20,000 nt of DNA, from the IMG/VR virus record IMGVR_UViG_3300030330_006222. One strand, written 5' to 3'. The position numbers and the translations under genes are program-made. This document shows positions 508 through 17,094 of the stretch, piece by piece (within the stretch, counting starts at the first letter, position 1; each line of letters starts with the position of its first letter). Below the pieces are notes generated by a model. It had not been told where the DNA came from. It saw only the letters and a program-made list of their open reading frames with translations, and made no database searches. This DNA comes from an uncultured virus (IMG/VR IMGVR_UViG_3300030330_006222) (Duplodnaviria; Heunggongvirae; Uroviricota; Caudoviricetes).

Positions 508-931
508 CTTCGTATACATGATTCACATCTGGTCTTGTTATCGCGTATCTAACACCGGGACCGTCACCAACGCACTTAATGTGATGCCATGTATTTTTAG
601 GAACCACAATAATATCATTCTTCTTGACACGTTGGGTTCCTATACCTTCAATCCACCATTCCCACTCACCATCTAGAATGACCCAGTTTTCATCTGCATC
701 AGGATGGAAGTGTTTACGGTTGCCTTCGCCAGGATGTTGTTGGATGACAACACCACCAAACAGCTCATTATAAGCAATTCTTACCGCCCAAGAGCCCATG
801 CCAAGATCTTCACGAAGATCACGCAAATTGACTGTTGAACAGTTCTCATATTTTACTAGCTCTGAATGTCCTACACCATCGTTTTTGAGGACATTAACAA
901 GATCGCTGTCTGAGTTAGTTTTTATTCCCAT
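500..931 (-). CDS. Cupin-domain protein (Cupin_2-like)
   Basis: 143 aa with cupin motif 1 PGEGNRKHFHPDADENWVILDGE and motif 2 DIIVVPKNTWHHIKC. Overlaps both neighbours. Confidence 0.88.
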   Translation of the reverse strand: MGIKTNSDSDLVNVLKNDGVGHSELVKYENCSTVNLRDLREDLGMGSWAVRIAYNELFGGVVIQQHPGEGNRKHFHPDADENWVILDGEWEWWIEGIGTQRVKKNDIIVVPKNTWHHIKCVGDGPGVRYAITRPDVNHVYEDE

Positions 932-2826
932 TATCTTGTCTCGTTTTTAAATTTTGGTAACAAAATGAAATCTTTGATACGCTTTGATACACTAGTAGAA
1001 TTTAACATACTAAGTACCGGTTTGTCAAGTTTAAATCTCTTATCTTTTAATAAAACATTCTTACAATGCATCATCTGTGAAAGCTGATCATGTAACACTC
1101 TATCAGGTCCGTTTGGTGTCCCTGAAGGACCGTACGTATCTGTGTATTGTTTGTTGTATTTGCCTTCATCTGATTGTGGAACTCCGCCGCTGTAGAAATC
1201 CAAACCAAACACGGCTAACTCTTTAATTGGATAGCCTAATAACATATTTAATGCACCGTAACCAGAATTAAAGTTTGCTGAATATACTGTGTATACTCCC
1301 TTATCAAATTTTTCAATGTGTTGCTTTGCATAGATTTCCCAATACAATGCCCATCGATCCCAGGTAGAATCTTCATTTTTAAGATGCACGAACGGCACAT
1401 TTAATTCAGCGAACTTTGATTCATATACCTCATCTACCATAGCCCATGTGCCATCTGGCTTCATTTGGCTGGCTGTATCGTTACAAATAACAAACTTAGG
1501 TCTCTGTTCTTCTGGTAATGATTGTATGTGTTCAACAACCGGGGGTCCATAATTAGAATTTAAACAGCTTTGAATAATATCAGTTCTAGTCCCATAGTCT
1601 TCTTCATTTGGAATGCCGTGCTGTATGCGCACTACAACGTCATATGAATCAATTAACTCACCCTGACCAAGTCCTTTCATGTATGGTGCCGGACCTACAA
1701 ACGCCACCTTTTTATCTTTGAGATACTCACTTAGTTGCTCATCAGTGCTAAAATTTTTCATAAACAAGGCTTCAGGTGTGATTCTTTGAAACTGATCTAC
1801 ACATTCTGAAGTCGTTAACTTTCTGCAATTTTCTATTGTATTGTTAATGCGTTCTGTAATTTCTATCCATGGATTAGTCGTTGTTTTTAAATCAGAATAC
1901 TTGATTGTGGAGAGCATCTCGTTTATTATTTGTTCATTTTCAGAATTTATGTCAGACATTTGTTTTCTAACACTAACTTCTATATTATTAAACCATTCAT
2001 GCTCCAAATCAAAGAAAAGTTCTATTGTTTCACGATTAAAATAATCCTTTATGTGATGATCGCTAACTGGGACCAATTTATTATCCAGTGCTATTTTTTG
2101 AAATACTGATTTTATCAACATAGAATTATATTTTTGAGACTCATTGGTGGCGTATCTATCAATGGTAGCGACTTTCTTAAACGCTGGACGAATCCACTTC
2201 CACATCTCATTCATTCTGTAATCGTTCCAGGCGCCGTCTAGGTTGTGGGGTGCTTCCATATCAGTGTTTCCGTTGTCGTAGACCATTTTGTGACTACAAA
2301 CAACGTGCCTTAAAAACGGTATTTCTAAAATATTAAACAAATGACAAGCTTCAACGCCACCACCAAAATTAGTAATCATTGGAAAAAACCATTTCATTAG
2401 CGAGTGGTGGATAACCTTCATGCCACAATGAGTAAATGGAAGCACAGAGGCGTCTTTACTGTCACGATAGTCAGTATTCGCAGCATAGGGAGTGGTCATA
2501 CCATTGCCAGGATAGTAAGTCAACACAGCGGGATTAAATTTATTTAAATCCTCAAGAATCTGTTCTTTTACTCCTAAGTCTCGTAATGGTCTAAAGTTGT
2601 AATCATAATCCACAAACGCATAATACTCATACTGTTGTGGCACCATCGCAGCCAAAATATTTCTGGTATCGGTCCACGTAGTATTTGGGCAATATTTAAG
2701 AGCATCTTTGTTAGGTCCATCGTGAGTAACAAAGTAAAAATCACACTCTTCTTGTTTTGAAAAGTATTCAATATGCTTAGGATTGGGAGTTAAAGGCGTA
2801 ACTTGCAATACGCAAAACTTCTTCAC
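931..2826 (-). CDS. Two-domain glycosyltransferase: N-terminal putative GT-A domain plus C-terminal GT29 (sialyltransferase-like) domain
   Basis: Likely GTG start at 2826 (GTGA overlap with the gmd stop; the track starts at 2841). The N-terminal part has FYFVTHD, WTDTRN and a DxD motif in YAFVDYDY. The C-terminal part has sialylmotif-L-like KKVAFVGPAPYMKGLGQGELIDSYDVVVRI...DYGTRTD, motif-S-like NSGYGALNMLL...LAVFGLDFY, and a late His (LHDQ). Confidence 0.72.
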   Translation of the reverse strand: MKKFCVLQVTPLTPNPKHIEYFSKQEECDFYFVTHDGPNKDALKYCPNTTWTDTRNILAAMVPQQYEYYAFVDYDYNFRPLRDLGVKEQILEDLNKFNPAVLTYYPGNGMTTPYAANTDYRDSKDASVLPFTHCGMKVIHHSLMKWFFPMITNFGGGVEACHLFNILEIPFLRHVVCSHKMVYDNGNTDMEAPHNLDGAWNDYRMNEMWKWIRPAFKKVATIDRYATNESQKYNSMLIKSVFQKIALDNKLVPVSDHHIKDYFNRETIELFFDLEHEWFNNIEVSVRKQMSDINSENEQIINEMLSTIKYSDLKTTTNPWIEITERINNTIENCRKLTTSECVDQFQRITPEALFMKNFSTDEQLSEYLKDKKVAFVGPAPYMKGLGQGELIDSYDVVVRIQHGIPNEEDYGTRTDIIQSCLNSNYGPPVVEHIQSLPEEQRPKFVICNDTASQMKPDGTWAMVDEVYESKFAELNVPFVHLKNEDSTWDRWALYWEIYAKQHIEKFDKGVYTVYSANFNSGYGALNMLLGYPIKELAVFGLDFYSGGVPQSDEGKYNKQYTDTYGPSGTPNGPDRVLHDQLSQMMHCKNVLLKDKRFKLDKPVLSMLNSTSVSKRIKDFILLPKFKNETR

Positions 2827-3794
2827 AGTTCGCGCTCCCATCTCTCAATCATTTCATCCAGCATGGAACTAAAGGTGTATTCTGGCTCCCACCCAAGCAC
2901 CTTACGCGACTTTGAAGAATCACCTTTAAGGTACTTAAGCTCTTCTGGGCGCATATATTTAGGGTTTTGAACAATATAATCTCTATAGTCCATATCGAGC
3001 TTAGAGAACACTTGCTCACACAAGTCTCTAACGGAGTGTGTTTCGCCTGTTGCTACAATAAACTCGTCCGGCTCATCGTGGTTAATAATCATATGCATTG
3101 CGCGGACGTAGTCCTTGGAGTGACCCCAATCACGGTAAGAATCCATATTTCCTAATTCCAGCTTATCTTGTAATCCTTTCTTAATTGATACCGCGCCCTT
3201 CACCACCTTATTGGTGACGAAGTTGGAGCCGCGTCGAGGAGATTCGTGATTGAACAAGATACCGTTGCAAGCATGCAGCTTGTAAGCGTGTCTATAGTGC
3301 CTCACAAGGTTATATCCCATCACTTTAGCACAACCATAAGGGCTGACAGGGTTCATCGGTGTAGTAAGCCTCTGCACACCATCATCGTCCACAGAATTAC
3401 CAAACATCTCCGAAGAGCTAGCTTGGTAGAATTTAGCGTTTGGCACCAGAGTGCGATAAACCTCTAACATATTCAATACACCCAAAGCATTTGTTTGGAT
3501 TGTAAATGAAGGCATATCAAAACTAACTCTAACATGACTCATAGCACCAAGATTGTAGATCTCGTCTGGTTGTACCTCTTGAGTGATTCTTACCAAAGAT
3601 GGATAATCAAGAAGGTCTCCGTAGTGAGTGTGAACGTGCTCATTCAAACCAAGCTTATCGAGACGGTGGTTTTGGTTTTCTGCAACTGAATGTCTGCGTA
3701 CAATTCCGTGTACTTCATATCCTAGCGATAATAAGTGCTCTGATAAGTAACTTCCGTCTTGTCCGGCAATACCAGTTATAAGTGCCTTTTTCAT
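2823..3794 (-). CDS. gmd: GDP-mannose 4,6-dehydratase
   Basis: KKALITGIAGQDGSYLSEHLL, YNLGAMSHVRVSF, FYQASSSEMFG, SPYGCAK, GILFNHESPRRG..FVT.K and RDWGH are diagnostic GMD motifs. Confidence 0.97.
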   Translation of the reverse strand: MKKALITGIAGQDGSYLSEHLLSLGYEVHGIVRRHSVAENQNHRLDKLGLNEHVHTHYGDLLDYPSLVRITQEVQPDEIYNLGAMSHVRVSFDMPSFTIQTNALGVLNMLEVYRTLVPNAKFYQASSSEMFGNSVDDDGVQRLTTPMNPVSPYGCAKVMGYNLVRHYRHAYKLHACNGILFNHESPRRGSNFVTNKVVKGAVSIKKGLQDKLELGNMDSYRDWGHSKDYVRAMHMIINHDEPDEFIVATGETHSVRDLCEQVFSKLDMDYRDYIVQNPKYMRPEELKYLKGDSSKSRKVLGWEPEYTFSSMLDEMIERWEREL

Positions 3795-4381
3795 TTAAAA
3801 ATCTCCATTTGTGTTAAGTCTGGCCAGTCTTCTACTGTCCATTTTGTTGGTTTAGTGGCGATTGCAGTCTGTAATTTTTCTAAACCAAGTTGCGCTGTTT
3901 CAGGTGTCATATAATAATGATACCCAACAGAAGAAATATTCTGCTCGCGCCAAGGTACATCAGGTAGTCTACCATCATACGACATTTTTTTCAAGCGTAA
4001 AGCTGCTTCTTTATTATCAGTAAGGATCATTCCACCTCGTCCCAAACTAAGATGCTTGCGAAATTGAAAACTTAAGCACATGAAAGTGTTTGGAATATAA
4101 GAATCTTTTTCCCACAAAACTGCGGCATCTATAATATTTGAGTCACCAAGGTAATAATAATCTTGCCAAGTCTCATCGCGCCAACTAAAATCTATGTTTA
4201 GTTTCTGTGCTAAAAATGGAACCGATATGTACGTTCTTTTTGGAGTCGAGAACTTTTGTATTTTCTGGTCTCTTAGACACAATTCTAAAGCATGTGTGCA
4301 GCAATCAACTGCCACACCGTAAGGAGAACCAAAGAAGTTCGCTATTTGATTTTCAAATTCATTTATAACTTCAAAACTCAT
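3791..4381 (-). CDS. DegT/DnrJ/EryC1/StrS-family PLP-dependent aminotransferase-like protein, short form (196 aa)
   Basis: FENQIANFFGSPYGVAVDCCTHALELCL, IIDAA, SFQFRKHLSLGRGGMILT (PLP lysine context) and GYHYYMT...AQLGL. Confidence 0.85.
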   Translation of the reverse strand: MSFEVINEFENQIANFFGSPYGVAVDCCTHALELCLRDQKIQKFSTPKRTYISVPFLAQKLNIDFSWRDETWQDYYYLGDSNIIDAAVLWEKDSYIPNTFMCLSFQFRKHLSLGRGGMILTDNKEAALRLKKMSYDGRLPDVPWREQNISSVGYHYYMTPETAQLGLEKLQTAIATKPTKWTVEDWPDLTQMEIFK

Positions 4382-4922
4382 TTTTCAAACACTCCACATT
4401 AAGACTGACCAAAACACCATTTTCTTTATCCATGTGTGGGATATATGCTTGCGAGTGATCATCAAATTTAGCATGCTCAGTATCTCTCCAATCATAGTAT
4501 TGTATATTGCAAAAGTCTAGACTGGCTAGTAAACTAGCTAGGCTTCTGAAATCGTATGTAGTCTTGTGATAAATGGTTTCATTATCCATTGGCATCCTAC
4601 CATATAGCGGACCAAGTATGTTTTCTAACTTAATTTTCTTATCTAAATAAAGTTGCGCTAATACAGGAAAATTTGGCACCGCCAACCGCAACACTCCGTA
4701 CGGTTTTAAAGCGCGCTTCCATTCTTTTAGCAGAGGAATAACCTCTTCGCGATCAAAATATTCTATTACATGTGAGGCATATATGATATCAACTGAATTA
4801 TCCTCGAACTGACTTAGGTCCGTTATGTCACGATAGTCTAAATGTTCATAATCACCACCATCAATGTGAACCCAATCATTACCAAAGTTACGCCAGCCGC
4901 AGCCAATATTGATTTTAATCAT
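4371..4922 (-). CDS. Class I SAM-dependent methyltransferase (Methyltransf_11-like)
   Basis: Likely ATG at 4922 (MIKINIGCG). Motifs NIGCG, FEDNSVDIIYASHVIEYF and EWKRALKPYGVLRLAVP. Confidence 0.85.
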   Translation of the reverse strand: MIKINIGCGWRNFGNDWVHIDGGDYEHLDYRDITDLSQFEDNSVDIIYASHVIEYFDREEVIPLLKEWKRALKPYGVLRLAVPNFPVLAQLYLDKKIKLENILGPLYGRMPMDNETIYHKTTYDFRSLASLLASLDFCNIQYYDWRDTEHAKFDDHSQAYIPHMDKENGVLVSLNVECLKNEF

Positions 4923-5334
4923 CAATAAACTCCTTGTCACTGGCTTGTCCGTAATAAGGACCAGTCTTGTATTCTAAAACCAAAGTGTTATCTTCAAGAA
5001 TTACATAATTATGACCACCGAATAATGTGATCGATAAGTCGCCAGTCTCTAATATTCTTCTTTCTACAATAGTGTCATCAAGATCGTAAAATATAGCCTC
5101 CACTCTACCGTTCATCACAACCCAAGATTCTTGAGCTATAGCACTTTTAGGTACAGTTTTGTAAATATGTTTGTGAGGTTTAAACGTCTTTCCCTTACTA
5201 AAATTTAAAATAGCTAACTGGAGGTATTGCTCTTCATCCACTATGTCATTTCTAACATCATTCAATTCAGCTGGTCTACAGACAATATGCAATAACTTAT
5301 CTGGTTCAACTTTAGAATATATTTTATCAAACAT
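4915..5334 (-). CDS. Cupin-fold protein (WbuC / sugar-isomerase-like)
   Basis: FKPHKH...QESWVVMNG...GDLSI...GGHNY...LEYKTGPY is a metal-binding cupin pattern typical of polysaccharide loci. Confidence 0.75.
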   Translation of the reverse strand: MFDKIYSKVEPDKLLHIVCRPAELNDVRNDIVDEEQYLQLAILNFSKGKTFKPHKHIYKTVPKSAIAQESWVVMNGRVEAIFYDLDDTIVERRILETGDLSITLFGGHNYVILEDNTLVLEYKTGPYYGQASDKEFIDD

Positions 5335-6026
5335 TATAATCCTAATGCTTTTTCAAGCGACATTCTTTTAAAACAACGCAGCGTTGTGATTGGGCTACAA
5401 TTTATAACTTGTATCCCAGCATGAGCGGCACGGTAGGCAAAGGCATTCCAAGTTGGTAAATGAAATTTGATTCCATCTGGAATATTGTATTCATCACCCT
5501 TTTGTTGGTAATCATCGAACCAATAGTTTGGATTCTTATCCGGTGTTTTTTCCATCTTAAGACCTGGACCGTCTTTCACGCATCCGTCTACAAATTCGAC
5601 GTAATTGCAATCAACTCCTAATAAAACAATCTTTTTGTATCCCAAAGCAGCTGCAGTTGAACAGGCATTTGCACCAGAGTTACCATTGTCGTGAAATTGT
5701 GCAAAATCCTTCGGAGATGAATTCCATTTGTTTGTTGTACCATATGGTAGTAAATTGACAAATTGAAATTTCTCATGGTTATCATTTATGTCTATGATAT
5801 AGAAGCACTTCTCAATTGGAGAATTGTCAATTAAATTATTAAAACTCTCGCGATGGTTTTCTGTAACTCGATAGTCATAGCAGCCGTGATATTTTGGCCA
5901 CCAATCCATTCTTTCATATGCTCTGTAAGCCGAGTTTAAACCAAAGGTATCAAACCCGTCAAGCTTGGCAAAATCAACGTCTTTCAAAGACGGACCATTG
6001 CCCATAATAACTATAGTATCACTCAT
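5334..6026 (-). CDS. Maf/DUF115 (MptE-like, Cst/GT42-related fold) putative glycosyltransferase
   Basis: IVIMGNGPSL, TFGLN, GNSGANA...ALGYKKIVLLGVDC and VINCS, the motif set of DUF115/MAF_flag10 and CMP-sugar transferases. Confidence 0.7.
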   Translation of the reverse strand: MSDTIVIMGNGPSLKDVDFAKLDGFDTFGLNSAYRAYERMDWWPKYHGCYDYRVTENHRESFNNLIDNSPIEKCFYIIDINDNHEKFQFVNLLPYGTTNKWNSSPKDFAQFHDNGNSGANACSTAAALGYKKIVLLGVDCNYVEFVDGCVKDGPGLKMEKTPDKNPNYWFDDYQQKGDEYNIPDGIKFHLPTWNAFAYRAAHAGIQVINCSPITTLRCFKRMSLEKALGL

Positions 6027-6876
6027 AATAACTCCAAAAAGCGTCTCCTCTGCTATCCATATGTTCGTAACACGACATCATTGTTTCAAACCAAGGCTCA
6101 TCCTTATGTTGAACATGCTCATTTAAAACTAACTGACATCCAAGCATTTTTGCCTCCATGACAAGTCTGGGACACGTGTCGCTTGCTTGCGGTAAGAAAA
6201 TAAGTCCTTTAGATGTGGACAGTTTAATTAATAGTTCATGATATTGTAAGCCTGAAATTAGTTCGTACTCTAGGTTATTCTCCTCGGCGTATGCAACAGC
6301 GAGGGCGCTTGGCTTTACTGGCGACACAGAATCTAAAATAAGATATTTATTGTCTTTCTCGTTATCTTTAATTGATAACATAAATCGTAAATCACCACCA
6401 CTAAACACTGAATTTAGCACTGCACAATTTTCATCTTTGAGAGCCGTAACTTTTTCAAGGATCATATTCTTTTGTTTTTCACTCATAAACCAAACTCTTT
6501 CAGCATATCCATAAAACGCAGAGTTAATTTTACCATGCATTTGTTTTTCACAGTCACAGGGCTCACCCTCAATTAACTGGTGTAATTCAAACGAACGATG
6601 TTTACAAATTTTATAATCATATTCTACGATCGAGTATGAACAGTTTTTAGCCATGTATAGTTTGATATCATCCTGTAGTTGGAAAAAGTTGCAAACTATA
6701 AAATGATGAGTGTCTTTGTTGTGGACTAAAGTTTTTTTGTCTAACTTTGCGCAATGAATCGGAGCAACATCAAAACCTCTACTAATACCATAACGCATAA
6801 TAGCGTCAGTGGTCAATTCAGCCCCACCAACGCCATCATTTATAAAAAAATCAGAGATAAAAGCAATTTTTTTCAT
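6019..6876 (-). CDS. GT-B fold (GT4-like) glycosyltransferase, compact
   Basis: N-terminal KIAFISDFF...GGAELT and C-terminal GLIFLPQASDTCPRLVMEAKMLGC (D/E-x7-E motif variant). Confidence 0.75.
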   Translation of the reverse strand: MKKIAFISDFFINDGVGGAELTTDAIMRYGISRGFDVAPIHCAKLDKKTLVHNKDTHHFIVCNFFQLQDDIKLYMAKNCSYSIVEYDYKICKHRSFELHQLIEGEPCDCEKQMHGKINSAFYGYAERVWFMSEKQKNMILEKVTALKDENCAVLNSVFSGGDLRFMLSIKDNEKDNKYLILDSVSPVKPSALAVAYAEENNLEYELISGLQYHELLIKLSTSKGLIFLPQASDTCPRLVMEAKMLGCQLVLNEHVQHKDEPWFETMMSCYEHMDSRGDAFWSYYE

Positions 6877-8141
6877 AGTAAATCATTAAGCAGATTTTCT
6901 ACTTCTTCCTGTTTCTCTTCTTCTCCCTTCAAATCTACGATACAGTTTACAAACTCTTCGTACATATTTTCAGGTGAAAATTGCTGTCTTAAATCAAGCG
7001 CTCGGCTGCAACTATTAAGTGCAATCGAGTCCTCTACATTGTTCGTAATATCATTATAACAATTTCTCATTTGTTCCTTAACCGAATGTGGTCTTGCATA
7101 TGACCAGCCAGATTCTTTTAGAATTACCCCATCCCAAACAGCAGCTTCAGGTACAGTATTGATATCAAATGCTACTTGGTAAAAATGTGGCTTGGGCGGG
7201 ATGGCATTATCATATATGAAATCGCATTGTCCGGACCAACCAACTGCTACAACAGGTAGCCCACTATAAGCAGCTTCGAAGATTGGTAATCCAAAACCCT
7301 CACCGTGCGGAATAGCGACCATGGCATGAATCTTTTCATCCTGATATAAGGAATGCATTTCTTCGTCTGACATATGTCCGTGAATTAGATAGATCTTACA
7401 CTTTCTATCATCGGCAGAAACCTGGTTAATCATATTTCTTAAATTCGCCAAACACATGTTTCTGTCCATCAAACAATTCTTCGCAATATTGGTTTTAACA
7501 ACAAGTCCAACATCTTCGTCTTTGAACTCCTCAATAAAACACTTTATTGTTGTTTCCAAGTTTTTACGAGGTCCGAGTTGGGCTACAGTTACAAAATTAA
7601 ACTTGGTCTCTAATTCAAGATTTAAGTCTGGTAAATCATCATACTGTTTAACTGGGTAATTAACTGCTGTAATATCTGCACTGTTTTCAAGTATAATTCT
7701 TTGACCGGTCGATTCATCAACACCCTCAAAGCGCGCTGCTGACAAAACATTCTTCGAATGATTAGATACAACAATTATAGAATCCATTTCATTACACTTG
7801 GCTGTCCACTCTGGGGCGCAGAGAGTAGTCTCAATTCCTGCAGTGTATCCTATGTCCCTCTTGGCTATATTCATAAACTCATTCGGAATAGTCACTTGTA
7901 AAGAGATATCGAACTGACCACCTTGTTGTACAAAGCCAACAGTCTTTTCGATTGTTTCGTCAATCCACCTTCTTTCAGGCGTATCATCAATAATCCAAGA
8001 TGTTTGTCCCCAAGTTATTGGCTTAATATAAACATCAAATAAGTCTTCGCGACTTCTAAGAGCCCTCAAAGCAAATCGAGCTTGCTCTCCATAACCACTA
8101 CGAGTCAGTATAGGTCCGACTAACAATACACTTTTTTTCAT
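6873..8141 (-). CDS. GT4-family glycosyltransferase
   Basis: ATG at 8141 with a GGAGG RBS and ATGA overlap. Motifs SGYGEQAR, PRKNLET and GEGFGLPIFEAAYSGLPVV (E-x7-E). Confidence 0.9.
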   Translation of the reverse strand: MKKSVLLVGPILTRSGYGEQARFALRALRSREDLFDVYIKPITWGQTSWIIDDTPERRWIDETIEKTVGFVQQGGQFDISLQVTIPNEFMNIAKRDIGYTAGIETTLCAPEWTAKCNEMDSIIVVSNHSKNVLSAARFEGVDESTGQRIILENSADITAVNYPVKQYDDLPDLNLELETKFNFVTVAQLGPRKNLETTIKCFIEEFKDEDVGLVVKTNIAKNCLMDRNMCLANLRNMINQVSADDRKCKIYLIHGHMSDEEMHSLYQDEKIHAMVAIPHGEGFGLPIFEAAYSGLPVVAVGWSGQCDFIYDNAIPPKPHFYQVAFDINTVPEAAVWDGVILKESGWSYARPHSVKEQMRNCYNDITNNVEDSIALNSCSRALDLRQQFSPENMYEEFVNCIVDLKGEEEKQEEVENLLNDLL

Positions 8142-9424
8142 GCGACCTCCAGTAAGTGCCATTTTTTATAATTCTTTCTAGTTTCCCAAGAACCACTTTC
8201 TTCAATAACCTTGTCCATAAACTCAACCCACTGTTTTTCATAGTTTTCAAAACTAAAGTTTTCTTTAATGTGTTGAATACCTGCTTCAGACATTTTCTTA
8301 TATTTTGTTTTTGGCTGCTTGAGTGCCTTTGTAAGCGTCTTTTCAAAATCCTTTTGGCTAATCCTATCTTCATAGATATAAGGCACCTGAAGCGAACCAA
8401 TGATGGTTTTAGAGCACGGTTGAATACCCCAGCCAAACCAATTGGTACCATCTGTAACCTGTTCTTGAAGACCACCGGTCATGTTTACAATAATGGGTGT
8501 GCCACAAGATAAAGACTCCAGGGTAGCTAAACCAAAGCCTTCCGCATCAGAAATGTTAATAGTATAGTCTGAAGCATTGTACATAATCGCTAATTGTTCA
8601 GGACCAACTTTAGTAGTGGACAATAGTACTTGTCCATGGTTAAGACCAAGATGTTCAATAATGTGCGGAAGATCTTGCCCGTGGGGGTCACGTGCATCAG
8701 TGTGCATAACTAAGGCTGCCTTATCGTGCCCAACCTTATCAAGCCACTCTTTAAACCACCAGATCAACGTTCCAGATTGTTTGCGGCGTGCATTGCGGTT
8801 GTTCCAAAAGAAAATCTTTTTCTTTGGATTTCTATTCTCTTCGTTAGCTGTGTCTATGATTTTTTGGCGAGTTGCCTTAACCGCTTCTAATTCTGGACCG
8901 TCTGTTAACGGGCGAAAAAATGTTGGATTAACAGCATGGCTGATATGAGTCCCAAAAGAATCTGGAGAACATGTCCGAACTATCTCTTCCGTTACTCTGG
9001 AAATAGATACAACATAATCAGTAGAATCATAATAAGCTTTGTTATACAGAGGTACAGGGAAGTTATCCCACACGTGATAATAAACCATCGGGACCAAAGA
9101 CCGTACTTCATCTTCAATTTCCCAAAGCCACTCATAAAAACGTGGATCAGTCATAAACCACAGTACATCTGGCTTTTCTTTTCTCAGTGCTGATCTGATA
9201 GTTTCATCATTACCATAGCCGTCTACTGGAATAATCAAAAAGTCTTTTCCATATGGATCCACAGTAATAGGGGTATAATCAGCATGCTTCATAGCACCCC
9301 CCAAACAAACAAACTGGTAACGACCAGTCTTTAACAAAGCTTCAATCATATACTTTGTTTGAGTGCCGACACCAGAGGGCGAAAGCGGGTGGTCAGATAA
9401 GACCAAAATTTTCTTTTTTGTCAT
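8138..9424 (-). CDS. GT4-family glycosyltransferase
   Basis: KILVLSDHPLSPSGVGTQT, NNRNARRK and AEGFGLATLESLSCGTPII...TGGLQEQV. Confidence 0.92.
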   Translation of the reverse strand: MTKKKILVLSDHPLSPSGVGTQTKYMIEALLKTGRYQFVCLGGAMKHADYTPITVDPYGKDFLIIPVDGYGNDETIRSALRKEKPDVLWFMTDPRFYEWLWEIEDEVRSLVPMVYYHVWDNFPVPLYNKAYYDSTDYVVSISRVTEEIVRTCSPDSFGTHISHAVNPTFFRPLTDGPELEAVKATRQKIIDTANEENRNPKKKIFFWNNRNARRKQSGTLIWWFKEWLDKVGHDKAALVMHTDARDPHGQDLPHIIEHLGLNHGQVLLSTTKVGPEQLAIMYNASDYTINISDAEGFGLATLESLSCGTPIIVNMTGGLQEQVTDGTNWFGWGIQPCSKTIIGSLQVPYIYEDRISQKDFEKTLTKALKQPKTKYKKMSEAGIQHIKENFSFENYEKQWVEFMDKVIEESGSWETRKNYKKWHLLEVA

Positions 9425-12590: not shown

Positions 12591-13523
12591 CTAAATTGTG
12601 TTTTCAGCTAGCAGATTATCACGGTATTTTAGAAGCGCAAGTTCCTTATGTTTAGCTTCAATCATAATATCAAACTCATTACCATAGTCGTTTAGTGTAT
12701 TATAAACTAGGTCTGAGTGTGCTTGTGGCTTGATCTTCGGATTGTTATGCTCAAGTGAGCGAGATTCTGCATAATGCACAACCGGCTTAATGTCTCCCCA
12801 CGTAGACAGTGCAAGCTCTAGTGCCTCTTGTTCTGATTGTCCACCGGGATGTAACATGTGATGGTGGTAATCAAATACAATTGGGATTCCAATTCGCTTG
12901 TAAACACCATCATACAATTCTTTTGTGGAGTATAACGATGTTTTGTCGTCATTCTCAACAGTTAGACGGGAGCGGACATTTTCTGGCAACCGTTCAAAGT
13001 TGCGACAGAAGTTATCTAGAGCGAATGGCTTGTCACCGTAAGCAGCACCAACATGAATATTAAGCTTAGCGTATGGTGTACGAGGCAAGCCAATGAGGTC
13101 AAACAGATCACCATGTACAGACAAATCAGTCTTAGTAAGTTGAAACACTCGTTCCTTGGGTGAAGCTAGCTTGTTAAATGGTCCAGGATGCGATGTGAGC
13201 CGCATTCCATGTTCTCGGGCAAAGTTACCCGCCTTAGCTGCCGCGGCGTGAATAGCGCCGAAATTAGGCATATCTGTGAGGTCATACTCCGATGCCCATG
13301 GGATAATATCAGAGGAAAGACGATAAAAGTAAATATCATTCTCAAGATTCCACTCAAGAATAGTGTATAGATCTCGTAGATTTTGCAATGCCAATTCGGC
13401 AGCGTACTCGATACCACGCTCAGTGAACGTGCGCTTGATCATTGTACGATTAGTTGTGATGCGTTGCGACTTTGGCAACGAAGAAAAGCCCATGTTAATA
13501 CAGGCGTAGCCCAAATGATTCAT
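12591..13523 (-). CDS. uvsE: UV-damage endonuclease UvsE/UvdE
   Basis: LGYACIN, YRLSSDIIPW, RLTSHPG, NIHVG, RLTVENDD, IVFDYHHH, HYAES, AHSD and MIEAKHKE. GGAGG RBS. Confidence 0.96.
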   Translation of the reverse strand: MNHLGYACINMGFSSLPKSQRITTNRTMIKRTFTERGIEYAAELALQNLRDLYTILEWNLENDIYFYRLSSDIIPWASEYDLTDMPNFGAIHAAAAKAGNFAREHGMRLTSHPGPFNKLASPKERVFQLTKTDLSVHGDLFDLIGLPRTPYAKLNIHVGAAYGDKPFALDNFCRNFERLPENVRSRLTVENDDKTSLYSTKELYDGVYKRIGIPIVFDYHHHMLHPGGQSEQEALELALSTWGDIKPVVHYAESRSLEHNNPKIKPQAHSDLVYNTLNDYGNEFDIMIEAKHKELALLKYRDNLLAENTI

Positions 13524-13546
13524 AATACCCTCCTACAGGTACATTA

Positions 13547-13575
13547 ATTATAACCACTCAAAGGCGATCTGTCAA
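13547..13575 (-). promoter_or_regulatory. Perfect-consensus sigma70 promoter for uvsE
   Basis: TTGACA GATCGCCTTTGAGTGGT TATAAT (17-nt spacer). Confidence 0.9.
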
Positions 13576-13820
13576 CACTTTCTAACTATTTCAAAATCAA
13601 ATACCCAGATTTTAGGCTTCTCTCCTCGTTTATAAGGAACACCTTTTTTTCGAAGTTTTTCAACTTCCTTCTGGTTAGTGATCTGAGCTTCCCACCCATC
13701 AACACCAAGTTTATGTTTTGAAGCAATGTATCGACGTCGCAACACAATACAAACATTAGGACCAGCGAACGATTTTACCAAAACTCTATCGTTCTCGGTA
13801 TATCTCTTCTTCGACTTCAT
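13572..13820 (-). CDS. Hypothetical basic protein (82 aa)
   Basis: ORF on the coding strand, Lys/Arg-rich, filling the gap between neighbours. Confidence 0.7.
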   Translation of the reverse strand: MKSKKRYTENDRVLVKSFAGPNVCIVLRRRYIASKHKLGVDGWEAQITNQKEVEKLRKKGVPYKRGEKPKIWVFDFEIVRKC

Positions 13821-13953
13821 GAATCTTATCTATAGTCTTCATAACGGAGTCAGGAATGAAAAGTACTTTCAAACAAAAGAAAGCAGCTAAAAACATAGAC
13901 ATTCCAAGTATGCACAATTCCGCAAATACTTCTAATTTTTTATCTAACCCCAT
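13786..13953 (-). CDS. Small hypothetical membrane protein (55 aa)
   Basis: Probable start is ATG 13953 (MGLDKKLEVF), because the longer track start lies inside a tRNA. Single hydrophobic segment FAELCILGMSMFLAAFFCLKVLFI. Confidence 0.6.
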   Translation of the reverse strand: MGLDKKLEVFAELCILGMSMFLAAFFCLKVLFIPDSVMKTIDKIHEVEEEIYRER

Positions 13954-13980
13954 ATTGTATATATGTGGTAAAAAATAAAA

Positions 13981-14057
13981 TGGCTGGGGCGGCTGGACTC
14001 GAACCAGCAACGGCCGGGGTAACAACCCGGTGCACCTGCCTGTGGCGCTTCACCCCA
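13981..14057 (-). tRNA. trnN: tRNA-Asn(GUU), non-canonical core, CCA encoded
   Basis: TGGGGTG AA GCGC CACAGGCAG GTGC A CCGGG TT-GTT-AC CCCGG CCGTT GCTGG TTCGAGT CCAGC CGCCCCA G CCA. All four stems pair, with U1-A72 and G73. Confidence 0.88.
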
Positions 14058-14059
14058 AT

Positions 14060-14095
14060 AAAAACCGGTTTTCTGTCTAGAACTAGGATAACCGG
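14060..14095 (-). terminator. Possible intrinsic terminator or processing hairpin just 5' of the tRNA
   Basis: CCGGTT-ATCCTAGTTCTAGACAGAA-AACCGG followed by TTTTT. The stem is interrupted. Confidence 0.4.
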
Positions 14096-14164
14096 AAACC
14101 CCTGCCTACGTGACGATCGGCAGCCACGTCCTGCTTACTGAATGCGCGAGCAGAACAGCGCGCT
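14096..14164 (-). ncRNA. Putative structured (pseudoknotted) RNA of unknown family
   Basis: GC-rich intergenic stretch. Helices GCGCG/CGCGC and GTTCTGCT/AGCAGGAC cross (H-type pseudoknot). A second crossing pair is ACGTGGC/GTCACGT and (C)TGCC/GGCA(G). Confidence 0.5.
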
Positions 14165-14644
14165 CTATGCGTCAAACGTCAACGTACCGTTTTCTGTCTC
14201 AACCGAAACGGTCCAACCTGAAATACCCCATGGGTTAACTTCTACGAAGTTTGCAAAGGGAACTTCAACTTGAGCAGTAAGCGTACAAAAGCCGCGCTTG
14301 TGGTCATACTTCTCGGTGGAGTACTCAATTAGGTCAACATCATAGAAATTTTCTGAGAGAGTTTCAGCAAGATACTCAGCAAAACTATCCGAGCCTCTTT
14401 CATAATCCTCTAGATAATCTTCCGCGCGGAGGTGCTCAATAATATTTCCGCTCCAACGATTACGCGCATCCAACTTGGTTTGTGCAATCAACGATGCAAA
14501 TTCGCTAATGACCTCAGTTTCGTTCATCGCGTCCTCAACCTCAGTCTCATTATGAACAAAGACATCAGTGCCTTCCTCATAAGTAAGTGTTATCATCGCA
14601 TCATCCGATAACTTAAGTGATTGTAGTCTTTTTACAACAGACAT
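14165..14644 (-). CDS. Hypothetical acidic protein (159 aa)
   Basis: AAGGAG RBS before ATG 14644. Lies between the two tRNA-Asn genes. Confidence 0.85.
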   Translation of the reverse strand: MSVVKRLQSLKLSDDAMITLTYEEGTDVFVHNETEVEDAMNETEVISEFASLIAQTKLDARNRWSGNIIEHLRAEDYLEDYERGSDSFAEYLAETLSENFYDVDLIEYSTEKYDHKRGFCTLTAQVEVPFANFVEVNPWGISGWTVSVETENGTLTFDA

Positions 14645-14662
14645 GTTTTCTCCTTTTTGAAA

Positions 14663-14738
14663 TGGCTGCCTCTCGCGGGCTTGAACCGCGGACCCAGCGA
14701 TTAACAGTCGCTTGCTCTACCAACTGAGCTAAGAGGCA
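14663..14738 (-). tRNA. trnN: tRNA-Asn(GUU), canonical, CCA encoded
   Basis: TGCCTCT TA GCTC AGTTGGTA GAGC A AGCGA CT-GTT-AA TCGCT GGGTC CGCGG TTCAAGC CCGCG AGAGGCA G CCA (76 nt). Confidence 0.97.
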
Positions 14739-14973
14739 ATAAGCGTTCTTCTACCCACACTACAGTTGTTCCCTCAATAGTTTCGGGGGAAACCAGGTCC
14801 AAAGGAACAATGTAACACTTTTTAATTTTAATTGGGGTTAGCCTTTTGCTTTTGCCGCCAACCCACGGAAGCACTGTATATTCGCACTCATTAGAAATGA
14901 GCGCTGTAGAGTCGGTGGGATAGAAAAAATTATTATGTCCCACTTCAGATAGGTAACACTTTGTATAACTCAT
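14701..14973 (-). CDS. Hypothetical protein (90 aa), probably leaderless; 3' end overlaps the tRNA-Asn
   Basis: ATG lies 6 nt after a -10 box. The last 38 nt are inside the tRNA and the stop TAA is in the anticodon loop. Confidence 0.55.
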   Translation of the reverse strand: MSYTKCYLSEVGHNNFFYPTDSTALISNECEYTVLPWVGGKSKRLTPIKIKKCYIVPLDLVSPETIEGTTVVWVEERLLPLSSVGRASDC

Positions 14974-14979
14974 AATAAA

Positions 14980-15008
14980 AGAATAACATTTTAAGTTTTC
15001 TTTGTCAA
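14980..15008 (-). promoter_or_regulatory. Sigma70-type promoter driving the ORF/tRNA cassette
   Basis: TTGACA AAGAAAACTTAAAATGT TATTCT, with a 17-nt spacer and extended -10 TG. Confidence 0.75.
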
Positions 15009-15012
15009 CAAA

Positions 15013-15519
15013 TTACCACAAATAATATTTCCACCTTGGTATTATTTGAGTCTTGCTTATATCTTTAAAGATATCTGATTTTGGAACTTTAGGCTTTCTT
15101 AACAACGGCATGCCGGCTTCTTCGGGTGTTTTATCGCCTTTTTTCTGATTACACTTTTTACAAGCCGTAACCAAATTAAGCCAATCATTTTTACCACCTC
15201 TAGAACGAGGAATAACATGATCAATGGTTAGTCTATCAGTTGTAAAATGCTTAGCGCAGTATTGACATTGATTACCATCACGCCATATAACATTTTTCCT
15301 ATGACATGGAATTGTCTTATAGCGAAACTTAACAATTCTCTTGAGAGCAATAACACAGGGCAGCTCAAACGTTTCGTTAACAGAATTTATTACTTCATTG
15401 TAAGTTTCAATTGTCTGTGCTTTACCAATTAAACACAACACTAAAGCTTCAATTGCATCGATTACTTCAATTGGTCTAAAAGAAGAATCTAACTTCAAAG
15501 TTTTTGTGTTGTCCATCAT
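15013..15519 (-). CDS. HNH endonuclease (McrA/HNH_5-like, Zn-binding)
   Basis: RKNVIWRDGNQCQYC, LTIDHVIPRSRGG...WLNLVTACKKCNQKKGDKTPEEAGM. Confidence 0.93.
   Translation of the reverse strand: MMDNTKTLKLDSSFRPIEVIDAIEALVLCLIGKAQTIETYNEVINSVNETFELPCVIALKRIVKFRYKTIPCHRKNVIWRDGNQCQYCAKHFTTDRLTIDHVIPRSRGGKNDWLNLVTACKKCNQKKGDKTPEEAGMPLLRKPKVPKSDIFKDISKTQIIPRWKYYLW

Positions 15520-16747: not shown

Positions 16748-17094
<347 letters not shown>

What the first reader, a model, noticed from the sequence alone, without database searches (positions are those of the whole stretch)
14058..14164. Unexplained ~105-nt GC-rich pseudoknotted RNA leader in front of the odd tRNA
Seen (minus strand), starting 1 nt after a UAG stop: a well-formed H-type pseudoknot (S1 GCGCG 14163-14159 / CGCGC 14148-14144; S2 GUUCUGCU 14156-14149 / AGCAGGAC 14135-14128; loops 2, 0 and 8 nt). 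Next come two crossing or mutually exclusive helices (ACGUGGC/GUCACGU and CUGCC/GGCAG), then a CCGGUU...AACCGG hairpin with U5 ending 2 nt before the tRNA. G-U pairs work only on the minus strand. It is the longest non-coding gap in the window. I could not fit it to hammerhead, HDV/theta, twister, pistol, preQ1-I or SAM-II consensus. Inference: a new ncRNA or switch, such as an attenuator controlling read-through into the non-canonical tRNA, a processing element, or an antitoxin-like pseudoknot RNA.
Basis: partly seen in the sequence, partly recalled or inferred. Interest (0 to 1): 0.72.

Follow-up and report, generated by a model that had tools for sequence, protein, structure and literature searches.

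The report
New structured RNA beside phage tRNAs
A folded RNA of about 100 bases, present once per genome next to the tRNA genes of a group of large uncultured marine phages, is kept in shape by matching base-pair changes, carries a self-complementary loop that suggests two copies pair with each other, and matches no described RNA family.

Summary
The window's own fold is no better than shuffles (z -0.71). Comparison with relatives decides the matter. The element was found in 182 of 228 sources held, and a covariance model hits each of 90 unique variants exactly once. It occurs once in each of 5 whole phage records of 131-206 kb. It is absent from Rfam 15, from 50,697 deposited phage genomes and from 185,579 cellular species genomes.

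Covariation supports pseudoknot 1, hairpin 2, hairpin 3 and a third loop-to-5'-strand pairing. It does not support the ACGUGGC/GUCACGU helix. A 6-nt loop sequence is self-complementary in 90 of 90 variants across 10 different hexamers, which points to an RNA homodimer.

It is not a dedicated leader of the odd tRNA. 18 of 85 variants have no adjacent tRNA, 4 sit directly behind a tRNA, and the upstream neighbour varies.

Best reading: a stand-alone small RNA of the phage tRNA island whose function is unknown.

The parts
14058..14164 (-). Whole element: about 100 nt of structured RNA from just after the UAG stop to 1 nt before the tRNA.
   Evidence: Read. The covariance model R1 covers 14051-14170 at 117.5 bits, E 2.5e-33. 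There was no Rfam hit.
14159..14163 (-). Pseudoknot 1, stem S1, 5' strand (GCGCG).
   Evidence: The core GCG/CGC pairs in 100% of cells, and CG changes to UA in 4 of 90. The fourth pair is A-U 45, U-A 9, C-G 9, G-C 2 and unpaired 25 of 90. The fifth pair is G-C in all 9 of the window's type.
14144..14148 (-). Pseudoknot 1, stem S1, 3' strand (CGCGC). It lies directly 3' of the S2 5' strand.
14149..14156 (-). Hairpin 1 (pseudoknot 1, stem S2), 5' strand (GUUCUGCU).
   Evidence: 7 pairs, 99.7% of cells paired, 3 pairs with changes on both sides.
14128..14135 (-). Hairpin 1 (pseudoknot 1, stem S2), 3' strand (AGCAGGAC).
14119..14123 (-). Hairpin 2, 5' strand (CUGCC). Two further pairs inside the loop extend it: A14117-U14108 and U14116-G14109.
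   Evidence: 100% paired. The outer pair is C-G 53, U-A 26, U-G 11, and the next pair is U-A 80, C-G 10. With the extension, 98.3% of cells pair.
14102..14106 (-). Hairpin 2, 3' strand (GGCAG).
14124..14129 (-). G-rich 5' strand before hairpin 2 (ACGUGG). In the window it can pair with CACGU 14112-14108 in the hairpin-2 loop.
   Evidence: In this register 69.8% of cells pair. One sequence at one of the five pairs is changed on both sides, and no pair shows a recurrent compensatory change. 30 of 90 variants instead have a GGGGG...CCC arrangement. The pairing is unresolved.
14099..14101 (-). Third loop-to-5'-strand pairing, 5' strand (GGG; AGG in most relatives).
   Evidence: Pairs with CCY in the hairpin-3 loop in 98.5% of cells: A-U 72, G-U 11, G-C 2. 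By motif the counts are AGG/CCU 75, GGG/CCU 11, GGG/CCC 3.
14085..14087 (-). CCU in the hairpin-3 loop, partner of 14099-14101.
14090..14095 (-). Hairpin 3, 5' strand (CCGGUU).
   Evidence: 23 different complementary stem combinations among 90 variants, for example CGACUU/AAGUCG, UCGAUU/AAUCGA and CGGCUU/AAGCCG. 4 of 6 pairs show changes on both sides. 90.3% of cells pair on an alignment that is off by one column for some rows.
14065..14070 (-). Hairpin 3, 3' strand (AACCGG).
14076..14081 (-). Self-complementary hexamer UCUAGA in the 19-nt loop of hairpin 3. This is the proposed intermolecular (kissing) dimer contact.
   Evidence: 90 of 90 variants carry a self-complementary hexamer here: UCUAGA 41, CCAUGG 23, UCGCGA 7, UCAUGA 7, CAUAUG 4, CCUAGG 2, CCGCGG 2, and wobble forms UCAUGG 2, UCUAGG 1, UCGCGG 1. 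All three symmetric positions change on both sides.
14060..14064 (-). U5 tract after hairpin 3.
   Evidence: At least 5 U in the first 8 nt occurs in 33 of 67 variants with an adjacent tRNA and in 14 of 18 without.
13981..14057 (-). Downstream G+C-rich tRNA-Asn(GUU). Its 5' end would set the element's 3' end after RNase P cleavage (inferred).
   Evidence: ARAGORN; Rfam tRNA model 43.5 bits.
14165..14644 (-). Upstream 159-aa ORF of unknown function. Its stop codon ends 1 nt before the element.
   Evidence: ORF list. No Pfam, PHROG or PADLOC family. The AlphaFold model has pLDDT 88.8 and no clear structural match.

Best explanation
The element is a gene for a small structured RNA of a family not yet described. 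It belongs to the tRNA island of a clade of large (about 130-205 kb) uncultured marine phages.

Fold (shown by covariation): three tandem units. Unit 1 is a classical H-type pseudoknot. Unit 2 is an extended hairpin preceded by a G-rich strand whose partner is unresolved. Unit 3 is a hairpin whose loop pairs back to the RGG just upstream.

Self-association (inferred): the loop of unit 3 displays a 6-nt self-complementary sequence. It changes identity between lineages but always stays self-complementary. A sequence with no loop between its halves cannot fold on itself, so the simplest reading is that two RNA molecules pair through it, as a kissing-loop homodimer or a larger assembly.

Maturation (inferred): the RNA is transcribed with its upstream neighbour. 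Its 3' end just after hairpin 3 is set by RNase P cutting at the abutting tRNA, or, where no tRNA follows, by the hairpin plus U-tract.

Function: unknown. My best guess is a trans-acting, self-associating phage RNA of the same general kind as the tRNA-island RNAs GOLLD and ROOL, not a regulator of the tRNA.
For: Distribution:
- The element was found in 182 of 228 sources held.
- Model R1 hits each of 90 unique variants exactly once in 224,054 bases, both strands.
- It hits once in each of 5 whole phage records, 4 of them rated 100% complete.

Structure:
- 97.3% of cells pair, 15 of 29 pairs show changes on both sides, and 0 of 500 shuffles reach this. Slid controls pair at 34-47%.
- The fourth pair of S1 uses all four Watson-Crick types.

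Palindrome:
- 90 of 90 variants are self-complementary, with 10 hexamer states.
- The central pair is U-A 48, A-U 32, G-C 10.
- U-G wobble forms link the UC..GA and CC..GG series and work only as RNA on this strand.
- There are at least 9 state changes by count of states, and 21 on a quick tree built without those columns.
- L031 keeps only unit 3, and there the hexamer is UAAUUA.

Independence from neighbours:
- The upstream neighbour is a Cys-rich mini-ORF in 46 variants, the 159-aa ORF in 31, other ORFs or unclear in 10, and 3 have a tRNA and no nearby stop. L178, counted among the 10, also sits behind a tRNA.
- 18 of 85 variants have no adjacent tRNA.

3' end: a U-rich tail occurs in 14 of 18 variants without an adjacent tRNA against 33 of 67 with one (Fisher p 0.036, rows not independent).

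Not coding: indels of 1 and 4 nt occur between variants.

Precedent: GOLLD and ROOL are phage RNAs near tRNA islands that multimerise through kissing loops (PMC12286853, passages read).
Against: - No experiment or raw-read data show a discrete RNA or a dimer.
- The only RNA-library evidence is one low-depth contig (228 nt, depth 2.3) spanning 14038-14265. It would fit an unprocessed co-transcript or DNA carry-over.
- A 3-bp mini-hairpin inside the loop (pairs 92-100, 93-99 and 94-98 of alignment A2) is compatible with 259 of 270 cells. Part of the palindrome signal therefore has an intramolecular reading, although that reading cannot explain the covarying central pair.
- If the CCU/RGG pairing forms, the hexamer sits in a pseudoknot loop where access for a second molecule is untested.
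- All sequences come from one phage clade. Most were collected with a pattern that fixed parts of hairpin 1, the hairpin-2 loop and GGTT, so the invariance of those positions is partly by construction.
- The tree used for counting changes rests on about 120 columns and is poorly resolved.
Confidence: 0.55

Rival explanations
1. It is a purely cis-acting 3' structure. The three structured units stay on the upstream mRNA as a 3' UTR that blocks 3'-to-5' exonucleases after RNase P removes the tRNA, or after termination. There is no trans function and dimerisation is incidental.
For: The element starts -1 to 13 nt after an upstream stop codon in 87 of 90 variants, and no promoter-like site lies directly before it. 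One RNA-library contig runs from the ORF through the element into the tRNA. Hairpin 3 plus a U-tract resembles a terminator in 47 of 85 variants.
Against: Four variants lie directly behind a tRNA with no ORF to protect. The upstream gene differs between lineages while the element stays. A simple hairpin would be enough for protection. This reading explains neither three covarying units nor a hexamer that stays self-complementary through at least 9 changes.
Confidence: 0.25
2. It is an attenuator or riboswitch. Units 1 and 2 sense a signal, and hairpin 3 with its U-tract terminates or allows read-through into the tRNA or downstream genes.
For: In the window, hairpin 3 is followed by U5 and then the tRNA. 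The crossing helices in unit 2 could in principle be alternatives.
Against: A U-rich tail is present in only 33 of 67 variants that have the adjacent tRNA. The downstream gene varies or is absent. No conserved alternative pairing that would disrupt hairpin 3 was seen. The hairpin-3 loop is 15-21 nt with its own conserved features, which is unlike an expression platform. No riboswitch family matched at E up to 10.
Confidence: 0.07
3. It is a DNA-level element, for example a binding site for a dimeric protein at the palindrome, or an origin or packaging signal.
For: It contains a perfect 6-bp palindrome inside an inverted repeat, in a G+C-rich island of 52-57% against 31-47% in the flanks.
Against: A protein site should keep its sequence. 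Here the hexamer takes 10 states while staying self-complementary. G-U cells are common throughout, including 4 wobble hexamers, and would be mismatches in DNA or on the other strand. The spacers on the two sides of the palindrome are unequal, 8 and 5 nt.
Confidence: 0.04
4. It is a self-cleaving ribozyme or an antitoxin-type RNA.
For: It has a compact pseudoknotted fold next to tRNAs. HDV-like 'theta' ribozymes of phages are linked to tRNAs (recalled, not read here).
Against: No ribozyme family matched at E up to 10 on 13900-14800 or at gathering score in 15 relatives. The element lies 5' of the tRNA in 67 of 85 variants, which is not the 3' position recalled for theta ribozymes. There are no tandem repeats, one copy per genome and no toxin-like neighbour.
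Confidence: 0.04

Closest known systems
GOLLD and ROOL RNAs (Rfam families; cryo-EM in PMC12286853)
   Same: They are encoded by phages and prophages, often near tRNA islands, and their function is unknown. They are highly structured with pseudoknots, and kissing loops conserved by covariation join the chains (passages read; review PMC12990946).
   Different: They are 500-800 nt or longer and form 8- to 14-mer cages. This element is about 100 nt with one predicted self-contact, which by itself gives a dimer. There is no sequence or model match. Its self-association is inferred, not shown.
Phage T4 RNAC and RNAD (small stable RNAs of the T4 tRNA region)
   Same: They are small RNAs transcribed from a phage tRNA region with unknown biological roles (PMC3014915, passage read).
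   Different: Homology was not tested because no T4 RNAC or RNAD sequence was compared here. No DNA match to any of 50,697 deposited phage genomes was found for 13700-14700.
HIV-1 dimerisation initiation site (DIS) kissing loop (recalled from general knowledge; not read here)
   Same: A 6-nt self-complementary sequence is displayed in a hairpin loop. Different lineages carry different palindromes.
   Different: The DIS sits in a 9-nt loop of a simple hairpin in a viral genomic RNA and serves genome packaging. Here the hexamer sits in a 15-21-nt loop that also pairs to an upstream strand, in a small RNA of a DNA phage.
Strings of tandem pseudoknots: tmRNA PK2-PK4 and the upstream pseudoknot domain before the tRNA-like end of tobamovirus RNAs (recalled)
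   Same: Several consecutive hairpin-type pseudoknots lie next to a tRNA or tRNA-like structure.
   Different: The Rfam tmRNA model did not match here. The window has its own one-piece tmRNA at 16749-17094. The element also persists without an adjacent tRNA.
manA RNA motif (RF01745)
   Same: It is a short RNA found in marine phages, recently reported to self-assemble into closed oligomers (bioRxiv 10.64898/2026.07.01.735769; abstract and passages).
   Different: It has a different fold and context (5' UTRs). There was no Rfam match here.

Membership tests
Any Rfam 15 family | Match to a curated covariance model | tested here: not met
   The whole window at gathering score gave only tmRNA and 2 tRNAs. 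Positions 13900-14800 at E up to 10 gave nothing on the element; the only row that reaches into it (TCL6_3, 13920-14077, 14 bits, E 2.4) is noise. 15 diverse relatives at gathering score gave only tRNAs and tmRNAs.
Classical H-type pseudoknot (unit 1) | Two stems in which the loop of stem 1 forms the 5' strand of stem 2, with both stems supported | tested here: met
   The S1 core pairs in 100% of cells with CG changed to UA in 4 of 90. S2 pairs in 99.7% with 3 compensated pairs. The fourth S1 pair uses A-U, U-A, C-G and G-C (65 of 90 paired). Loops are 2-3, 0 and 5-10 nt.
Intrinsic (Rho-independent) terminator (hairpin 3) | G+C-rich stem, short loop, then a U-tract, conserved | tested here: not met
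   The stem is present, but the loop is 15-21 nt with conserved content. A U-rich tail occurs in 47 of 85 variants. The terminator scan found 0 sites in 13500-15100.
Transcription attenuator or riboswitch | Conserved alternative pairing that competes with a terminator; constant regulated gene downstream | tested here: not met
   The downstream neighbour varies or is absent. The U-tract is not conserved. No riboswitch model matched. Ligand binding cannot be tested here.
Self-cleaving ribozymes (HDV-like/theta, twister, pistol, hammerhead, hatchet) | Match to the family model | tested here: not met
   No such family matched at E up to 10. Cleavage activity cannot be tested with these tools.
Type III toxin-antitoxin antitoxin RNA (ToxI-like) | Tandem repeats of a short pseudoknot unit next to an endoribonuclease toxin gene | tested here: not met
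   No tandem repeat in 13800-14800. One copy per record. No PADLOC match for the flanking ORFs.
GOLLD / ROOL class | Match to the Rfam model; length over 500 nt | tested here: not met
   No match. The element is about 100 nt.
GOLLD / ROOL class | Phage-encoded and next to tRNA genes | tested here: met
   67 of 85 variants have a tRNA 1-12 nt downstream, and 4 have one 3-6 nt upstream. L099 has three tRNAs directly before the element.
GOLLD / ROOL class | RNA-only multimer held by kissing loops | not testable with these tools
   Only the sequence signature is available: a self-complementary hexamer in 90 of 90 variants.
DIS-type kissing-loop dimer | Self-complementary hexamer exposed in a hairpin loop and maintained through sequence change | tested here: met
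   10 hexamer states, all self-complementary allowing an outer U-G. All three symmetric positions are compensated.
DIS-type kissing-loop dimer | Physical dimer | not testable with these tools
   No RNA-RNA structure tool or experiment was available.

The most novel reading that the evidence does not exclude
The RNA is a miniature, self-recognising assembly unit of phage tRNA islands. Two (or more) copies join through the loop hexamer. The frequent switching of that hexamer between palindromes acts as a lineage-specific address that keeps the RNAs of co-infecting relatives from mixing. The assembled particle acts in trans on a host or phage factor linked to tRNA use. This would extend the RNA-only quaternary assemblies known from GOLLD, ROOL and manA to a roughly 100-nt pseudoknot RNA, and would add specificity switching to them.
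Probability: 0.25. Interest if true: 0.8.

Novelty: new variant of a known kind. Interest (0 to 1): 0.62.

Why it matters
Structured phage RNAs of unknown function beside tRNA genes (GOLLD, ROOL, T4 RNAC/RNAD) are a long-standing puzzle. The recent finding that some of them build RNA-only assemblies has renewed interest in them.

This element offers a much smaller example that is easy to synthesise. It is about 100 nt long, has three covariation-supported units and carries a single predicted self-contact. That contact has natural compensatory variants, 10 palindromes in all, which form a ready-made mutational series for testing dimerisation and its specificity.

It also shows that the 'odd tRNA leader' is an independent gene that can move within the tRNA island. 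This changes how the tRNA regions of these abundant marine phages should be annotated.

Tried and rejected
- **Known RNA families.** Rfam found no family on the element at gathering score or at E up to 10.
- **Deposited phage genomes.** blastn (distant mode) of 13700-14700 and tblastn of the 159-aa ORF found no match. PhoH matches only at under 40% identity, so there is no cultured relative.
- **Cellular genomes.** The strict pattern gave 0 hits. This excludes only near-consensus copies.
- **Own genome and earlier findings.** No whole genome is held for this window. Earlier findings of this scan returned nothing.
- **Single-sequence folding.** It is not distinctive.
- **The window's ACGUG/CACGU helix as a general feature.** Rejected: 69.8% of cells pair, and the only change on both sides is one sequence at one of the five pairs. 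An alternative GGG/CCC register fits 30 of 90 variants but not the rest, so unit 2's pseudoknot stays open.
- **Mini-hairpin inside the hairpin-3 loop.** It is compatible with 259 of 270 cells but cannot explain the central covarying pair.
- **Hairpin-3 loop pairing with the tRNA 5' end.** A naive stem finder produced this (UUAUCCUAG with UUGGGGUGA). Rejected as a G-rich/CCU coincidence, because CCU is kept where no tRNA follows.
- **Unit 1 as a copy or mimic of the tRNA-Asn anticodon arm.** In the window AGCG-CUGUU resembles the upstream tRNA's arm. Rejected: the tRNA's anticodon stem differs in relatives (GCGGA, GGUGA, UCGGC) without parallel change in S1. The G of 'GUU' is A in some variants, for example L004, L014, L029 and L030.
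- **GAGGU before hairpin 3 as a ribosome-binding site.** No start codon follows it.
- **The upstream 159-aa protein as a clue.** The model is confident (pLDDT 88.8). Foldseek against the PDB gave no hit at E 0.001 or better. VIA-align's best Z was 4.5, with generic alpha/beta rows. There was no Pfam, PHROG or PADLOC family.
- **Sequencing runs.** All runs were available only as contigs. The RNA-library runs cover mainly the two tRNAs, plus one 228-nt contig across the element. Uncovered parts, depth and the small word shares of X18-X20 say nothing about expression or habitat.
- **Literature.** Four full-text searches ran and none surfaced a description of this motif. They used general terms (GOLLD/ROOL/kissing; phage, noncoding RNA and pseudoknots adjacent to tRNA; palindromic loop, homodimer and tRNA cluster; T4 rnaC/rnaD) and cannot prove absence from print. 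Two further searches failed on term format.
Full report
**Setting.** The window reads like part of a large phage genome, with every gene on the minus strand.
- The genes include a glycan-biosynthesis cluster (1-9424), a PD-(D/E)XK nuclease, PIN-PhoH, UvdE and an HNH endonuclease.
- RNA genes are a one-piece tmRNA at 16749-17094 and two tRNA-Asn(GUU) genes at 14663-14738 and 13981-14057.
- No whole genome is held for the window.
- No deposited phage genome matches 13700-14700 at DNA level or the 159-aa ORF at protein level. PhoH matches only at under 40% identity.

**The observation.**
- The UAG stop is at 14167-14165.
- GCGCG 14163-14159 pairs with CGCGC 14148-14144.
- GUUCUGCU 14156-14149 pairs with AGCAGGAC 14135-14128, with loops of 2, 0 and 8 nt.
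- CUGCC 14123-14119 pairs with GGCAG 14106-14102.
- ACGUGG(C) and (G)UCACGU form a helix that crosses it.
- CCGGUU 14095-14090 pairs with AACCGG 14070-14065, followed by U5, 2 nt before the tRNA.

On its own the sequence is not remarkable. The minimum free energy is -32.2 kcal/mol against -30.0 for shuffles (z -0.71), and 47 of 200 shuffles fold as well. Rfam 15 finds only the tmRNA and the tRNAs in the window at gathering score. A permissive scan of 13900-14800 finds nothing on the element at E up to 10.

**Relatives.**
- The upstream 159-aa ORF has relatives in 49 IMG/VR loci. The element itself was found by nhmmer in 38 of the 60 loci then held.
- A degenerate pattern drawn from the alignment found 47 viral contigs, each with one match.
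- The strict pattern found 0 stretches in one genome each of 185,579 bacterial and archaeal species.
96 of these hold the element and 24 are chance pattern matches.
- In all, 182 of 228 sources hold it, giving 99 unique cores. I dropped 9 that were cut by a contig end or held an N.
- A covariance model (R1) hits each of the remaining 90 sources exactly once, at 89.5-132.7 bits, on 224,054 bases and both strands.
- It hits once in each of 5 whole phage records of 131-206 kb. Four of these are rated 100% complete and one has terminal repeats.
- Fifteen diverse relatives scanned against Rfam gave only tRNAs and tmRNAs.

*Caveat.* All sequences belong to one phage clade. The collecting patterns fixed parts of hairpin 1, the hairpin-2 loop and GGTT, so the invariance of those positions is partly by construction. 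The covarying positions discussed below were not fixed.

**Structure.** I counted pairs on the 90-row alignment A2. For the model with the hairpin-2 extension, 97.3% of cells pair and 15 of 29 pairs show a change on both sides. 0 of 500 shuffles reach these values. Sliding the 3' partners by 1-3 columns gives 34-47% pairing.

| Helix | Cells paired | Covariation |
|---|---|---|
| Pseudoknot 1, stem S1 core | 100% | C-G changed to U-A in 4 variants |
| S1 fourth pair | 65 of 90 | A-U 45, U-A 9, C-G 9, G-C 2 |
| S1 fifth pair | all 9 of the window's type | G-C in each |
| Hairpin 1 (stem S2) | 99.7% | 3 compensated pairs |
| Hairpin 2 | 100% | outer pair C-G 53, U-A 26, U-G 11; next pair U-A 80, C-G 10 |
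| Hairpin 2 with two-pair extension | 98.3% | |
| Hairpin 3 | 90.3% | 4 of 6 pairs compensated; 23 complementary stem combinations |

The 90.3% for hairpin 3 reflects rows that are one column out of register in the alignment.

The helix ACGUGG/CACGU is not general. It pairs in 69.8% of cells. One sequence at one of its five pairs is changed on both sides, and the rest depart only by unpaired cells or a wobble, or never vary. 30 of 90 variants carry a GGGGG...CCC arrangement instead. The partner of that G-rich strand stays open.

*A third loop-to-strand pairing.* The RGG just after hairpin 2 can pair with CCY in the loop of hairpin 3.
- The motif combinations are AGG/CCU 75, GGG/CCU 11, GGG/CCC 3, and one AGG with CCCU.
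- 98.5% of cells pair.
- This gives unit 3 the same topology as unit 1. Its covariation support is thin, essentially one lineage.

*A self-complementary hexamer.* The loop of hairpin 3 holds a hexamer (UCUAGA 14081-14076 in the window) that is self-complementary in 90 of 90 variants while its sequence changes.
- The states are UCUAGA 41, CCAUGG 23, UCGCGA 7, UCAUGA 7, CAUAUG 4, CCUAGG 2 and CCGCGG 2, plus the wobble forms UCAUGG 2, UCUAGG 1 and UCGCGG 1.
- Counted as pairs, all three symmetric positions are compensated: U-A 55, C-G 31, U-G 4; C-G 86, A-U 4; U-A 48, A-U 32, G-C 10.
- The wobble forms are the expected intermediates between the UC..GA and CC..GG series. They work only as RNA on this strand.
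- Ten states need at least 9 changes. On a quick tree built without these columns the minimum is 21, though that tree is short and poorly resolved.
- A hexamer with no loop between its halves cannot pair with itself within one molecule.
- The only intramolecular alternative is a 3-bp mini-hairpin. It fits 259 of 270 cells but leaves the covarying central pair unexplained.
- L031, a more distant relative, keeps only unit 3, and there the hexamer in the same frame is UAAUUA.

I infer that the hexamer pairs between two RNA molecules.

**Context.** The element is not tied to one neighbour.
- Upstream: a 20-30-aa Cys-rich mini-ORF in 46 of 90 variants, the 159-aa ORF in 31, and other ORFs or unclear cases in 10. 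These 10 include two or three more Cys-rich cases, an unrelated ORF ending EGRWSQLG in three variants, and L178, which sits behind a tRNA. The remaining 3 have a tRNA and no nearby stop.
- In those four variants (L099, L148, L178, L193) the element starts 3-6 nt after the tRNA. In L099 three tRNAs precede it.
- Where an ORF precedes, the element begins -1 to 13 nt after the stop.
- Downstream: 67 of 85 variants with enough sequence have a tRNA 1-12 nt after hairpin 3 (mode 4 nt). Of these, 64 are tRNA-Asn(GUU) of 74-77 or 92-98 nt, and there is one each of tRNA-Gly, tRNA-Thr and a 99-nt 'tRNA-Glu'. The other 18 have none adjacent.
- A U-rich tail follows hairpin 3 in 14 of the 18 without an adjacent tRNA and in 33 of the 67 with one (Fisher p 0.036, rows not independent). 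This fits a need for a defined 3' end, made either by a terminator or by RNase P at the tRNA.
- The terminator scan finds no canonical site in 13500-15100. The nearest promoter-like sites on the minus strand are at 15008-14980 and 13575-13547, so the element is probably transcribed with its upstream genes.
- Indels of 1 and 4 nt between variants exclude a coding reading.

**Expression.** All sequencing runs were available only as contigs.
- In one marine RNA library a 228-nt contig of depth 2.3 matches 14038-14265 without a difference, running from the ORF end through the element into the tRNA.
- This shows the stretch is present in an RNA library. It may be a co-transcript or carried-over DNA. 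It says nothing about ends or level.

**What it is.** The evidence shows a conserved, single-copy, strand-specific structured RNA of a family that Rfam does not hold.
- It is restricted, as far as these searches reach, to a clade of large uncultured marine phages, and it sits inside their tRNA island.
- Inferred, not shown: it matures to a discrete RNA of about 100 nt, it self-associates through the loop hexamer, and it acts in trans.
- I put about 0.9 on 'real structured RNA family', about 0.55 on self-association, and about 0.5 on a discrete processed RNA.
- The main rival is a purely cis-acting 3' structure of the upstream mRNA (0.25).
- A DNA-level site (0.04) conflicts with the many G-U cells and the changing hexamer.
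- A ribozyme or antitoxin RNA (0.04) lacks any model match, repeats or toxin neighbour.

**Comparison with the known.**
- The closest in kind are GOLLD and ROOL. These are phage and prophage RNAs of unknown function, often near tRNA islands, whose chains are joined by kissing loops conserved in evolution (PMC12286853, passages; review PMC12990946, passages). They are five to eight times longer, form cages, and share no model match with this element.
- Phage T4 transcribes two small RNAs of unknown role, RNAC and RNAD, from its tRNA region (PMC3014915, passage). Homology was not tested.
- The hexamer resembles the HIV-1 dimerisation initiation site in design (recalled).
- A 2026 preprint reports that short phage-associated RNAs such as manA self-assemble (abstract and passages).
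- The element therefore works, on my reading, like a small member of the 'self-associating phage tRNA-island RNA' kind. It is not a member of any of those families.

**Side tests that led nowhere.**
- The upstream 159-aa protein gives a confident model (pLDDT 88.8), but no structural or family match.
- The resemblance of unit 1 to the neighbouring tRNA-Asn anticodon arm is a coincidence of the window.
- A stem between the hairpin-3 loop and the tRNA 5' end is a by-product of G-rich/CCU composition.

**Verdict.** The element is a good candidate for a new RNA family with a testable dimer contact, and its function is unknown.

Noticed in passing
Related loci, for example L008:3490-3565, L002, L004, L013 and L021 (between the 159-aa ORF and the element); not present in the window: A mini-ORF of 20-30 aa with 9-10 cysteines (ending ...CECCGC.APC.C.CCCK) has its own GGAGG ribosome-binding site. 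It sits directly before the element in 46 or more of 90 unique variants. It could be a metallothionein-like or precursor peptide. Its frequent pairing with the RNA is unexplained.
   Followed up: partly
window 13981-14057 (-) and its counterparts in L003, L025, L032, L107 and others: The tRNA after the element is an unusual G+C-rich tRNA-Asn(GUU) that scores 43.5 bits on the Rfam tRNA model, against 65.1 for the upstream tRNA-Asn. In 21 of the 64 adjacent tRNA-Asn genes ARAGORN-98 nt, that is with a long extra arm, which is unexpected for tRNA-Asn. Both tRNAs of the window encode their CCA end.
   Followed up: partly
window 16749-17094 (-): The phage encodes a one-piece tmRNA (99 bits) with the tag peptide VQNKLVPVFANNNEHFDAVALAA. 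It is conserved about 2 kb upstream of the element in relatives L006, L008, L015 and L027.
   Followed up: no
window 13575-13547 (-): A perfect sigma-70 consensus promoter (TTGACA, 17 nt, TATAAT; 12 of 12) lies just before the UvdE gene. It overlaps the 3' end of the 82-aa ORF.
   Followed up: no
window 14701-14973 (-) against tRNA 14663-14738: The 90-aa ORF overlaps the upstream tRNA-Asn by 38 nt. Either the ORF is spurious or shorter than listed, or the tRNA is embedded in its 3' end.
   Followed up: no
L031:3475-3520: This relative (62% identity in the ORF) has lost units 1 and 2 but keeps unit 3 before its tRNA-Asn. Unit 3 still has AGG/CCU, a CGACUU-type stem and the palindrome UAAUUA. 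Unit 3 is therefore a separable module.
   Followed up: partly
L041-L047, directly after the homologue of the 159-aa ORF: More distant relatives lack the element. In the same place they carry a different conserved hairpin (GAGGCAC-AGGGNNAUCAG-GUGCCUC) followed by U-rich sequence.
   Followed up: no
window 1-9424 (-): A run of sugar-modifying genes: a short-chain dehydrogenase, a cupin, a GDP-mannose 4,6-dehydratase, a DegT-type aminotransferase, a methyltransferase, GT4 glycosyltransferases and a weak sialyltransferase-like hit. This is a large glycan-biosynthesis cassette for a phage.
   Followed up: no
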